Positions 49,901 to 52,900 of a DNA stretch of 64,000 nt are shown here, piece by piece. Source of the DNA: Ginglymostoma cirratum (lineage: Eukaryota); assembly GCA_024137785.1 (NCBI GenBank), contig JAHRHZ010000062.1, positions 27,390,244 through 27,454,243 of the forward strand. Direction: 5' to 3'. How positions within the stretch are numbered: the first letter of the stretch is position 1; every line of letters begins with the position of its first letter. The position numbers are program-made.

Positions 49901-52900
49901 ACCTCTTTGTGAATTTATTAGCAGTCCCAAACAGCAACCACTGCTGCGTTCTGGCTGTATTTTCCTGTGTAGAACTGTCAGTGAATCACATTTGTCAGTA
50001 GCAGTCAAGGCAGGACTCCTTCCCATTGAGTAATGAGTCATTGCAGCAGGATAACTGGTCAGTGTTTCCTTCTCGGATGGACAACCTCCCCATTAATTCA
50101 GAGCATAGACTCTCTACTAAAAGAGCTACTTATGCAGCAAATAGGTTCCACATACTGATAGTTGATTTGGATTTAATCAATCTTGTTGCAGCAGCAGGGA
50201 AGAAAAACTTACTGTCACCGAGTTGCTTTGGTTGCAATTCATTCTGTTTTGGAAGACTGTACTAAAGTATACTATTTATAACATCTTCCCAATGCATCAC
50301 CAAATACTGTCCTCAAACAAAATTCCTTATACTGTTTGCTCTAGTCTCAATAGGACTTGTGAATTTGCCACGATAAGAACATTGCTGCTTTATGAAGACT
50401 TAAGTCAGCAGCTGGAAGCACACAAACAGACATGCCTTCAGTTGTGGAGACAGCAGCAGAGTAAATACAGGATTCAATAAGAAAAACTTCACATCAGAGC
50501 CAGTAAGAGGCAGATGAGAAAGAGGGTGTGAGCTAGGAAGTGAGTTAAAAACAAGTCACACTGAGTAGTGACAGAGTTCATTGAGAAGTAGAAGCTTTGA
50601 GGGCAATTTGGAGCCCTGAGACAAAAGTTAGAAATCTCCATAGAAAAGGAACAACAACATAAAAAACAGGGAAGGAAAGAAGATGACAAAGAAAATACAT
50701 ACCCTTCAAATTGTACATTGCTGCTATTGCGAGGAGGCTCCATGTCTCATTGCTTCAATAGATAGAGCATAAGGACTAGAGAATTAATTTATATTGAGGC
50801 TACAGTACCAGAAAGGTCACAGAATGCATTTAAAGGGGATGAAAGGGCAATTTAAAAGTATTTCAAAGCAAGAGGTAGTTAGAAAAAGAATTATAATAAA
50901 ACACAATTTAAGCCACAATTTTGATGGGAATGTTTATACAGGTCACAGCCACAGAGTTTATTTAAAACATTTTGCAAAGGTGGATGCATTATATTTCAGT
51001 TGGGAGAGGCAAGAAAATGTCCTATTTACCTGTGAAAAGTGGGAAGATTCAATTTAGGTTGTAGAAAGTGGAAACAATTCCATAATGTGATAAATCACTA
51101 TTTTGATAGCAGGATAGGCAGAAAAAGTCCCAGTAAGCAGTACAAGGGTACAGTTTTGCAACAAAAAATAATTTTACTTTTAAAAGAAGTAATACACTAC
51201 AGCACTTGCATAATTCAGTGCAAGATTTTGAAAACATAACTAATATTTAGGGTTACTATATCACCTTGAAGTAACATTTTATGATTTAGCCTTAGCTTAG
51301 TTCTTACACCGTGTTGAATTTTCCCAGTATTGAGTGGCACGGGTGACACTTCGTTGTAAATACGATGTTACATCTTTAAAAATATATGTTTTAAATCATT
51401 GAAATTTGAGAGAATAAGAGTGCAAGAATGAAAAAAAAATTGAGACAAGAAGTCCAATTTTCCTCTTAAGATTCTAACAACTACTTAAGAATTTCATTAG
51501 TAAGCCATGAGCATCTGATTTCCATCTGTTAGTCGAATTAGGGGTAAATAGGGGATATTGATAGTTAAACAAAAGTATTGGATGGGTATGTAGAGAGCCT
51601 CAAAGCTGAGGGGTTCACAGGAACCACAATGCTCAGGGTACATGTAGGGGTTAGGGGGAATCTTGACTTTCAAGTGCAGCCTGGAGTTCCCCACGAGCAT
51701 GACCTTGATCATGGACCATCTTTCATCAAATCTCAACTGTGCGTGAAGAGTGAACAATGGTTGCTGAAACATCCACTATGAATAGAGTAAGTTTCCGGTT
51801 TTTTTATTTGTGGGAGCAGGATGGATATTTTCGTCCTGAGGCAGAATTTGGATGTTCATGAGGCAGTGAACATTATCTATCCTGAAATGAGTGGGTGCTC
51901 CCTTATAAGACCCATAGTTAGACTGAACCTTTGCTGCCAGAGAGGGATGCACTAACAAATGATCATGTAGCAATAGACACAAAATTGCCATGCGTGTGGA
52001 ACACGAGTAGAGGTAAGGACCTAAAGCTGATTTCCTCATTTGTGCTAAATATTGGCTGCATTGATGAACGTAATGGTTGAAGGATGTCTCAAATTTGTTG
52101 CCATTTATGATCCTTCTTAAAGATGAGCAATGGCCCACCACTATAATTTTTCTGCTGCTTGAGCTACATGAAGGGGCTGCTTAAATCTGACATGGTAGCG
52201 ACTTAACTAGGCCCCACAGATAAAGAGACACACAATGATTTAAAACATATATTTTTAAAGATGTAACATCGTATTTACAACGAAGTGTCACCCGGGCCAC
52301 AATGTCCTGTCGGAGGGGTTTTCTTCTTGCTTTCCCCTAATATCTAGATGCAGTTCCGGGGTCTGCAGCTGGCTGGATGGCCCTACTTTGTACTGGACAC
52401 CATTAGTCTGGAAGAATTGCACAGATGACCATGGGGGTAGCTAGTGGCGAGGGGCCCCAGACATACTCGACTCAGCGTGCCATGCCCAGACGCAGGCTTG
52501 CCCTTCTGCGCTACAACTTCCACCTAGTTAGGGGTCACTGAAAGGATGGGGGAGCCTGCTTTTTCTGGAATCTCCTGTGAGAAGGCTTGTAGCTGTATGA
52601 CTTAGGTGTTTGATTCCTCTTCTGTCTGCTGGTTCTATGCTGTTTCCATGAGAGCAAAGGTCGCGTTGGGTGAGGTCAAGGTGTCTCCTTGGCCACTCTC
52701 ACCTTGCCATTGATGCTGAGCAGTAATGGCTAAAACATTGGAATGCATTGCTGGCAGTCAATGAGTGTTCTGTTGGACTTGGCTTTTTATGCTGACATTC
52801 ACCTCCTCACAGAGACAGACAGATGCACAAATGTCTGAGCCAGTGTAGAACTGATAACATTGGCATAATTCACCAGCCTTCAATCCAATTTACTGAATGG

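What the first reader, a model, noticed from the sequence alone, without database searches (positions are those of the whole stretch)
51334..52300. Near-perfect 68-bp inverted repeat inside an otherwise heavily decayed transposon relic
Seen: arms are 67/68 identical (62 contiguous matches), retain three CpGs each in CpG-poor DNA, and enclose 831 bp with no convincing ORF. No obvious TSD outside the arms (attga / aatgt). The other repeat pairs I compared here are far more diverged. Inference, with alternatives: a very recent inversion with duplicated breakpoint (template switching); ongoing arm-to-arm gene conversion or a flippable segment; a young non-autonomous TIR element; or an assembly artefact. 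It lies ~7.5 kb past the predicted SOX6 3' end.
Basis: partly seen in the sequence, partly recalled or inferred. Interest (0 to 1): 0.65.

Follow-up and report, generated by a model that had tools for sequence, protein, structure and literature searches.

The report
Local inverted copy from template switching
A 68-base stretch downstream of a SoxD (SOX6-like) gene occurs again 831 bases away in reverse orientation, most likely an ordinary scar of DNA replication or repair and not a jumping gene or a switch.

Summary
The inverted repeat is real. The arms are 51334-51401 and 52233-52300, matching at 67 of 68 positions with a 62-base exact run and an 831-bp spacer. Simulated windows give exact inverted repeats of only 13-16 bases. 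It is single-copy in the window and far younger than the other 12 repeat pairs, which are 70-89% identical.

As a transposon it fails. The 967-bp unit has no target-site duplication, no second copy, and no transposase trace.

Three results point to arm 2 being a 67-base inverted copy of arm 1:
- **Direct repeat:** arm 2 alone is bracketed by a 7-bp direct repeat, CACAATG (P about 0.012).
- **Composition of arm 2:** it is an outlier in its GC-richer surroundings (6 of 2619 68-mers; 2 of 2619).
- **Composition of arm 1:** it fits its AT-rich surroundings.

The copy would have been primed on a 5-nt microhomology and rejoined on 3 nt. This is a template-switch or foldback templated insertion, without inversion of the spacer.

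One result counts against this: the arms are unusually CpG-rich. The "transposon relic" label is not shown. Genome-wide copy number, reads and orthologues could not be checked. Interest is low.

The parts
51334..51401 (.). Arm 1, inferred to be the native template copy
   Evidence: Identical to the reverse complement of arm 2 at 67 of 68 positions. Its GC (22 of 68) matches the AT-rich flanks on both sides (0.313 and 0.313); 292 of 558 native 68-mers of that context have GC at least as high. Its Markov LLR lies in the low tail of the native range (35 of 558). Its junction direct repeat is only 5 bp (ATTGA), P = 0.11.
51397..51401 (.). CATTG, inferred priming microhomology for the first template switch
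   Evidence: It is the reverse complement of the CAATG that begins arm 2 and belongs to the first CACAATG copy. The priming role is inference.
51402..52232 (.). 831-bp spacer, inferred to be in its original orientation
   Evidence: GC skew is +0.15, as in the left flank (+0.12) and the right block (+0.13). Composition grades from 0.31 to 0.43 toward the GC-richer right block. The minus-strand 227-codon frame with one TAG has no homologue.
52233..52300 (.). Arm 2, inferred to be the inserted inverted copy (60 nt newly templated plus 5 and 3 nt of microhomology)
   Evidence: It is a compositional outlier in the block 51560-54380: 6 of 2619 68-mers have GC <= 23 of 68, and 2 of 2619 reach its Markov LLR. 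It is bracketed by a 7-bp direct repeat.
52231..52237 (+). First copy of the direct repeat CACAATG
   Evidence: repeat length 7, spacing 67. Of 20000 random 68-mers, 248 have a junction repeat of 7 or more (P = 0.0124). Sequence shown.
52298..52304 (+). Second copy of the direct repeat CACAATG
50800..51559 (.). AT-rich stretch that holds arm 1
   Evidence: GC is 0.31-0.33. The boundaries were chosen by me from the profile.
51560..54380 (.). GC-richer block (0.43-0.49) interrupted by arm 2; nature unknown
   Evidence: Minus-strand ORFs are longer than in shuffles (top-5 sum P = 0.012, maximum P = 0.07). No Pfam domain.
54025..54177 (-). Segment whose translation resembles one predicted whale-shark protein
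   Evidence: Residues 70-120 of the 172-aa ORF match P0002 at 30 of 51 positions. It is the only hit among 1,835,955,588 representatives, E = 8.6e-7. P0002 is a singleton from EukProt, Rhincodon typus.

Best explanation
The repeat is the scar of one local templated insertion. Arm 1 (51334-51401) is native sequence in an AT-rich stretch. During replication, or during repair of a break about 0.9 kb to its right, a growing 3' end that finished in CAATG left its template. It paired with CATTG at 51397-51401 on the strand of the same sense, either by switching strands in the fork or by folding back. It copied about 60-63 nt down to 51334, was released, and rejoined its original place through the 3-nt match CAC.

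This left an inverted copy (arm 2, 52233-52300), a net gain of 67 bp, and a 7-bp direct repeat (CACAATG) around it. The 831-bp spacer was not turned round. The structure has no function of its own.

Shown: the repeat itself, its sharp ends, the direct repeat, the compositional misfit of arm 2, and the absence of a TSD. Inferred: which arm is the copy, the ancestral sequence, and the order of the two switches.
For: 1. A TSD for the 967-bp unit is absent, although the arms differ at only 1 of 68 positions (95% CI 0.04-7.9%). A TSD of the same age should still be legible.

2. Arm 2 is bracketed by the 7-bp direct repeat CACAATG at spacing 67 (248 of 20000 random 68-mers do as well, P = 0.0124). 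Arm 1 has only 5 bp (2245 of 20000, P = 0.11). The 7-mer splits into 5 nt shared with one end of the template and 3 nt shared with the other, so 60 + 5 + 3 = 68.

3. Composition: arm 2 (GC 23 of 68) lies between GC 0.42 and GC 0.51. Only 6 of 2619 68-mers of that block are as AT-rich, and 2 of 2619 reach its Markov score. Arm 1 lies between two flanks of GC 0.313 and fits them.

4. With arm 2 removed, composition rises smoothly from left to right, and GC skew is positive in 20 of 21 overlapping 400-nt windows from 50200 to 54599, spacer included.

5. There is no other copy of arm or spacer in 64 kb and no diverged extension of the repeat.

6. The published signature of such events is an insertion in inverted orientation near its template, flanked by microhomologies (PMC8421209, passages read). 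Foldback insertions of 2 to about 150 bp are primed at microhomology and captured with 0-5 bp (PMC11724301, passages). The '3-2-1-4' template switch creates a new inverted repeat (PMC5453318, passages).
Against: 1. The arms are CpG-rich for AT-rich DNA. Only 87 of 20926 AT-rich 68-mers elsewhere in the window have 3 or more CpGs. An old native arm 1 should have lost them, so this favours a recently arrived sequence. A fourth CpG at 51310, just outside arm 1, softens this only slightly.

2. Arm 1 sits in the low tail of its own context by the Markov score (35 of 558).

3. The block boundaries and the junction-repeat test were chosen after looking at the data. Allowing for two arms, the repeat's P is about 0.025.

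4. The template lies 831-900 bp from the insertion. The tool in PMC8421209 looks only within 100 bp, and the yeast foldback loop was 41 nt.

5. The ancestral sequence is not observed. Arm 1 as the copy (microhomology 0 and 4-5 nt) remains possible.

6. Copy number in the genome is unknown.
Confidence: 0.5

Rival explanations
1. A young non-autonomous cut-and-paste DNA transposon of 967 bp with 68-bp terminal inverted repeats, inserted between 51333 and 52301.
For: It has near-identical terminal inverted repeats with sharp outer ends and a size typical of non-autonomous elements (recalled knowledge). The arms are CpG-rich, as expected of recently arrived sequence (87 of 20926 AT-rich 68-mers have 3 or more CpGs).
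Against: There is no TSD of 2-12 bp with boundaries shifted by +/-6. No second copy of arm or spacer exists in 64 kb, whereas a hairpin repeat family in the same window has 3 places. There is no transposase or other Pfam match and no homologue of the spacer frame. The insertion site would have to coincide with a jump in GC from 0.31 to 0.51, and the first 150 bp of the element would have to mimic the left flank. The 7-bp direct repeat around arm 2 alone is left unexplained.
Confidence: 0.18
2. A recent 0.9-kb inversion made by one staggered break (68 nt, filled in) and one blunt break. This leaves the staggered stretch duplicated in inverted orientation at both ends of the turned segment.
For: The layout of arm, segment and inverted arm is what the staggered-break model predicts (PMC1885836, abstract and passages). 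The ends are sharp.
Against: GC skew in the spacer (+0.15) has the same sign and size as in both flanks, and the spacer's AT-rich end adjoins the AT-rich flank. Undoing an inversion would create an AT-rich island and a skew reversal. Long ORFs lie on the minus strand in both the spacer and the right block (weak). The model does not predict the direct repeat around arm 2.
Confidence: 0.1
3. An assembly or consensus artefact: the second arm does not exist in the animal's DNA.
For: Nothing positive. The single mismatch lies in a C/G run (GGCACGGG against GGCCCGGG) and could be a consensus error.
Against: There is no gap or N in the window. The repeat is a 68-bp insert within otherwise unique sequence, not a contig-end foldback. 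There is no match to plasmid or vector records. The microhomology-flanked structure is biologically typical. Reads were not available, so this is untested.
Confidence: 0.08
4. An older inverted repeat kept identical by arm-to-arm gene conversion, or a segment that flips between the arms.
For: Near-identity of the arms with intact CpGs.
Against: No diverged repeat continues beyond the 68 bp on either side. No recombinase or other domain was found in the 12 ORFs scanned around it. I recall that 68 bp is short for homologous exchange in vertebrates; I did not test this.
Confidence: 0.05

Closest known systems
Microhomology-mediated templated insertions (MMBIR-type 'MMB-TI'; PMC8421209, passages read)
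   Same: The insertion is an inverted copy of a nearby template and is flanked by microhomologies at both junctions (5 and 3 nt here, in my reconstruction).
   Different: The template is 831-900 bp away, whereas that paper's search tool covers only templates within 100 bp. The ancestral allele is not available here, so the microhomologies are inferred and not observed.
Short-range template switch mutations, four-point model, type '3-2-1-4' (PMC5453318, passages read)
   Same: A single switch-and-return copies a fragment in reverse complement and creates a new inverted repeat without inverting the spacer. That type made up 31% of their high-confidence human-chimp events.
   Different: Their model addresses events within a few tens of bp. 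Here the copied fragment is 60-68 nt and the jump is nearly 0.9 kb. I did not see their size distributions, because supplements are closed.
Foldback templated inverted insertions at double-strand breaks in yeast (PMC11724301, passages read)
   Same: One end primes synthesis at an inverted microhomology on its own strand. The product is released and captured by the other end with 0-5 bp of microhomology. Sizes range from 2 to about 150 bp.
   Different: The loop was 41 nt in yeast and would be about 830 nt here. A simple blunt break does not explain the repeated AATG. The organism and the germline setting also differ.
MITEs and other non-autonomous TIR transposons
   Same: Terminal inverted repeats enclose a short non-coding body.
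   Different: There is no TSD, no further copy in the window and no recognisable parent transposase.
Inverted duplications at inversion breakpoints from staggered breaks (PMC1885836)
   Same: Inverted duplicates of formerly unique sequence lie at the two ends of a segment.
   Different: Composition and skew give no sign that the enclosed segment is inverted. The scale here is 0.9 kb, against chromosomal inversions in that paper.

Membership tests
Cut-and-paste TIR DNA transposon / MITE | Terminal inverted repeats at the very ends of the unit | tested here: met
   68-bp arms matching at 67 of 68 positions, with sharp outer ends.
Cut-and-paste TIR DNA transposon / MITE | Target-site duplication flanking the unit | tested here: not met
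   Lengths 2-12 bp were tried with boundaries at +/-6. The best exact match is 3 bp and lies inside the arms; 1361 of 1500 random pairs do as well or better.
Cut-and-paste TIR DNA transposon / MITE | Multiple dispersed copies | tested here: inconclusive
   No other copy in the 64-kb window. The genome itself and the repeat libraries were not available.
Cut-and-paste TIR DNA transposon / MITE | Transposase gene, or similarity to an autonomous partner | tested here: not met
   0 of 12 ORFs has a Pfam match at its cut-off. The read-through frame P0001 has none and no homologue among 91 candidates.
Templated inverted insertion by template switch / foldback (MMBIR-type) | The inserted stretch is the reverse complement of a nearby template | tested here: met
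   Arm 2 is the reverse complement of arm 1, 831 bp away.
Templated inverted insertion by template switch / foldback (MMBIR-type) | Microhomology at the junctions | tested here: inconclusive
   The 7-bp direct repeat CACAATG around arm 2 (P = 0.0124) resolves into 5 + 3 nt shared with the template ends. This rests on an inferred ancestral sequence.
Templated inverted insertion by template switch / foldback (MMBIR-type) | An ancestral or allelic state lacking the insertion | not testable with these tools
   No orthologous or allelic sequence could be fetched.
Templated inverted insertion by template switch / foldback (MMBIR-type) | The inserted copy is foreign to its context while the template is native | tested here: met
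   Arm 2: 6 of 2619 by GC and 2 of 2619 by Markov score. Arm 1: 292 of 558 by GC, but 35 of 558 (low tail) by Markov score.
Inversion with inverted duplication from staggered breaks | The enclosed segment is inverted relative to the ancestor | tested here: inconclusive
   Only indirect evidence: skew and composition are continuous across the flanks and spacer, which leans against inversion. No outgroup was available.
Twin-primed (5'-inverted) LINE insertion | LINE sequence on both sides of the junction, a 3' tail and a TSD | tested here: not met
   There is no RT or other Pfam match in 51334-54384 and no similarity to the window's LINE fragments. No poly-A or microsatellite tail is visible at either end (read by eye).
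Site-specific invertible segment | A recombinase gene nearby and both orientations present in a population | tested here: inconclusive
   No recombinase domain in the 12 ORFs of 50788-55011. Orientations cannot be tested without reads.

The most novel reading that the evidence does not exclude
The 967-bp unit is a young, very low-copy mobile or invertible cassette of a cartilaginous-fish genome. Its 68-bp CpG-bearing ends would be recognition sites, and it would insert without making a target-site duplication. That combination is not known for TIR elements. The unusual CpG richness of the arms is the only observation that leans this way.
Probability: 0.05. Interest if true: 0.55.

Novelty: new member of a known kind. 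Interest (0 to 1): 0.15.

Why it matters
It matters little in itself. It is one clean example of a long-range (about 0.9 kb), 60-68-nt templated inverted insertion in a non-mammalian vertebrate germline.

Such events create perfect long inverted repeats in one step. These can be mistaken for young transposons, or for inversions, by repeat annotators and by readers of raw sequence. The case shows which cheap checks separate the readings: a TSD scan, a junction direct repeat around one arm only, and the compositional fit of each arm to its own context.

If the rival transposon reading were right, it would point to a recently active DNA element in this genome.

Tried and rejected
**Coding and RNA searches**
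- Pfam on 12 stop-to-stop ORFs of 50788-55011 found nothing at cut-off. The two weak hits (E 0.016-0.13) are far below their cut-offs.
- Pfam and the homologue search on the spacer's read-through frame P0001 found nothing.
- The homologue search with the 172-aa ORF gave 30 candidates, none scored. The Atlas gave no usable hit.
- Rfam on 49500-56000 gave only a chance-level mir-9418 match at 51159-51213 (24.7 bits against a gathering score of 82, E = 0.59).
- No tRNA was found in the window.
- The arm folded alone as DNA is unremarkable (z = -0.98).

**Other tests that led nowhere**
- I guessed a PIF/Harbinger transposase from the look of the minus-strand translation. Pfam does not support it.
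- Twin priming of a LINE is rejected for lack of any LINE sequence or tail.
- Spacer against the right block, direct and inverted, shows no similarity (45 of 50 and 14 of 50 shuffles reach the score).
- Removing arm 2 in silico restores no long ORF across the junction.
- Contamination checks found nothing: no blastn match of the 967 bp in 72,556 plasmid records, and no exact match of a 32-mer of the arm in the bacterial/archaeal genome contigs.

**Correction**
One search printed '0.0000' for block 68-mers as AT-rich as arm 2. That was a rounding artefact. The integer recount is 6 of 2619.
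Full report
**Observation**

The arms are 51334-51401 and 52233-52300, they match at 67 of 68 positions, and the spacer is 831 bp. The one mismatch is at arm position 6, which leaves 62 contiguous matches.

- **Chance:** in 20 of 20 Markov-1 simulated windows, the longest exact inverted repeat within 2 kb was 13-16 bases, against 62 here.
- **Sharp ends:** local alignment finds no diverged continuation inward (24 of 200 shuffles reach the score) or outward (110 of 200). 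The outer flanks show no direct-sense similarity either (97 of 200).
- **CpG:** each arm carries three CpGs, in a window whose CpG o/e is 0.23.
- **Age relative to other repeats:** of the 13 repeat pairs that a self-BLAST finds in the window, this one is 98.5% identical and the other 12 are 69.7-89.5%. Of the 25 inverted pairs listed (35 were found), no other exceeds 87%.
- **Divergence:** one difference in 68 gives 1.5% (95% CI 0.04-7.9%).

**Setting**

The window has no N. It carries a SoxD-type gene on the plus strand:
- The HMG box is split between 25465-25815 and 34702-34980 (Pfam HMG_box, E = 6.8e-13 and 2.1e-6).
- A last coding exon ends at 37543 and is followed by TGA.

I scanned these exons one by one and did not join them. 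It agrees with my recollection of SOX6 C-termini, but I did not test it.

I do not take the window for human, for three reasons:
- The C-terminal exon differs at many positions from the human protein as I recall it.
- The window holds LINE-like tails and RT fragments (RVT_1, E = 0.004 at 59450-59746) of a kind I recall from cartilaginous fishes and reptiles.
- The only database relative of any ORF near the finding is a predicted protein of whale shark.

The source is therefore probably an elasmobranch, though this is not established. The arm starts 13,788 bp after the stop codon.

**Is it inside a transposon relic?**

I could not show this.

- **Composition:** the stretch 51560-54380 is compositionally distinct, with GC 0.43-0.49 against 0.31 on either side.
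- **ORF lengths:** stop-to-stop ORFs on its minus strand are longer than in shuffles. In 52301-54384 the top-5 sum has P = 0.012 and the maximum P = 0.07. In the spacer the maximum has P = 0.036 and the sum P = 0.12. The plus strand gives P = 0.29-0.36.
- **Domains:** 0 of 12 ORFs reaches a Pfam cut-off.
- **Spacer frame:** the spacer's 227-codon frame, read through one TAG as X, has no Pfam match. None of its 91 word-sharing candidates scores as a homologue.
- **Longest ORF:** the 172-aa ORF (53869-54384, minus strand) has one hit among 1,835,955,588 representatives. This is P0002, 100 aa, matching at 30 of 51 positions, E = 8.6e-7.
- **P0002 itself:** it is a singleton EukProt prediction from Rhincodon typus with no relative but itself.

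That single hit is as compatible with an orthologous non-coding stretch as with a repeat.

**Transposon test for the 967-bp unit**

- I tried TSD lengths of 2-12 bp with both boundaries free by +/-6. The best exact flank match is 3 bp and lies inside the arms. Of 1500 random position pairs, 1361 do as well or better.
- With arms only 1.5% apart, a TSD of the same age should be intact.
- No other copy of arm or spacer lies in the window. By contrast, a hairpin repeat family in the same window occurs at three places.
- A transposon would also have had to land exactly where GC jumps from 0.31 to 0.51, and its first 150 bp (GC 0.313) would have to mimic the left flank (GC 0.313).

**Which arm is the copy?**

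Two independent observations single out arm 2.

First, arm 2 is bracketed by a 7-bp direct repeat, CACAATG, at 52231-52237 and 52298-52304 (spacing 67). Among 20000 random 68-mers of the window, tested with the same freedom, 248 have a junction repeat of 7 or more (P = 0.0124, or about 0.025 allowing for two arms). Arm 1 has only ATTGA, 5 bp (2245 of 20000, P = 0.11).

Second, arm 2 (GC 23 of 68) is foreign to its surroundings. Only 6 of 2619 68-mers of 51560-52232 plus 52301-54380 are as AT-rich (which corrects a rounding artefact), and 2 of 2619 reach its Markov log-likelihood ratio. Arm 1 (GC 22 of 68) fits the AT-rich stretch 50800-51559: 292 of 558 native 68-mers have GC at least as high. 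By the Markov score, however, it lies in the low tail (35 of 558). I chose the block boundaries from the profile after looking at it, which weakens these numbers somewhat.

**Reconstruction (inference)**

1. The ancestral sequence had one CACAATG.
2. A growing plus-sense 3' end that finished in CAATG paired with CATTG at 51397-51401 on the plus strand.
3. It copied leftward to 51334, so the new strand ended in CAC.
4. It then returned to its own template at the CAC of the 7-mer.

This gives 5 nt and 3 nt of microhomology, 60 newly templated nt (5 + 60 + 3 = 68), a net gain of 67 bp and the duplicated 7-mer, all as observed.

Whether the event happened in a replication fork (a strand switch) or at a resected break (a foldback) cannot be told. 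A simple blunt break does not explain the repeated AATG. The reverse direction, with arm 1 as the copy, needs junctions with 0 and 4-5 nt of microhomology and does not explain the compositional misfit of arm 2.

**Was the spacer inverted?**

Probably not.
- GC skew is positive in 20 of 21 overlapping 400-nt windows from 50200 to 54599.
- Skew is +0.12 in the left flank, +0.15 in both parts of the spacer and +0.13 in the right block.
- The AT-rich end of the spacer adjoins the AT-rich flank. Undoing an inversion would create an AT-rich island and a reversal of skew.
- The longer ORFs lie on the minus strand in both the spacer and the right block.

These are weak, indirect arguments.

**Evidence against my reading**

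The arms are CpG-rich for AT-rich DNA. Outside the arms, 87 of 20926 AT-rich 68-mers in the window have three or more CpGs; over all 68-mers the figure is 1443 of 63933. A long-resident arm 1 should have lost them. A fourth CpG at 51310, 24 bp outside arm 1, hints at a local CpG patch belonging to that locus, but this point remains unexplained and favours a recently arrived sequence.

The jump of 831-900 bp is also longer than in the studies I read.

**Comparison with what is known**

[quoted passage not shown] That tool searches only within 100 bp.
- **Four-point model:** it corresponds to the '3-2-1-4' type, which creates an inverted repeat without inverting the spacer and made up 31% of high-confidence human-chimp events (PMC5453318, passages).
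- **Foldback insertions in yeast:** these range from 2 to about 150 bp, are primed at microhomology, and are captured with 0-5 bp. The loop there was 41 nt (PMC11724301, passages).
- **Staggered breaks:** this model gives the same layout but with an inverted segment (PMC1885836, abstract and passages).

I did not see these papers' supplementary size or distance distributions, because supplements are closed. They may bear on how unusual a 0.9-kb jump is.

**Not checked**

No eukaryotic genome, read set or repeat library (Dfam/Repbase) was at hand. Copy number in the source genome, the orthologous state, assembly support and spacer orientation in reads therefore all stay open. The plasmid search and the bacterial/archaeal 32-mer scan exclude only vector or prokaryotic contamination.

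**Verdict**

This is a real, recent, single-copy inverted repeat. It is best explained (confidence about 0.5) as a microhomology-mediated templated inverted insertion. That is a known kind of mutational scar with no function of its own. The rivals are a TSD-less young TIR element (0.18), a micro-inversion with a duplicated breakpoint (0.10), an assembly artefact (0.08), and gene conversion or a flipping segment (0.05). Interest is low (0.15).

Noticed in passing
window 27298-27504, 34173-34305, 35472-35556: A short hairpin-type repeat family. The copy at 27350-27504 is itself a palindrome (69-nt arms, 81% complementary, 17-nt loop), and the other two places match it at 81-85% in both orientations. 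It looks like an old MITE- or SINE-like element.
   Followed up: no
window 54759-55054 (-), 16887-17052 (+), 20398-20662: Three diverged copies (70-80%) of a LINE-like 3' tail. Their translations share a conserved C-terminal motif. There is no Pfam match. The copy at 54759 begins about 380 bp right of the GC-richer block.
   Followed up: partly
window 59450-59746 (-) and 3571-3963 (-): Reverse-transcriptase fragments (RVT_1, E = 0.004 for the first). The two share 70% DNA identity over about 120 bp.
   Followed up: no
window 54025-54177 (-): Part of a 172-aa open frame matches one singleton predicted protein of whale shark at 30 of 51 positions. It could be an orthologous conserved stretch or a low-copy repeat; this is undecided.
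   Followed up: partly
window 51497-52180 (-): A 227-codon frame in the spacer is interrupted by a single TAG. It is longer than in most shuffles (P = 0.036) but has no homologue and no domain.
   Followed up: yes
window 25465-25815, 34702-34980, 37205-37543 (+): The last three coding exons of a SoxD-type gene. The HMG box is split across the first two, and a TGA stop follows 37543.
   Followed up: partly
window 11210-11247, 31960-32015, 61727-61782: A short (38-56 bp) repeat at about 89% identity in three places, the least diverged repeat after the finding.
   Followed up: no
window 51310-51363: Four CpGs fall within 54 bp, in an AT-rich stretch that otherwise has one CpG per several hundred bases. 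The patch begins 24 bp outside arm 1. This is unexplained.
   Followed up: partly
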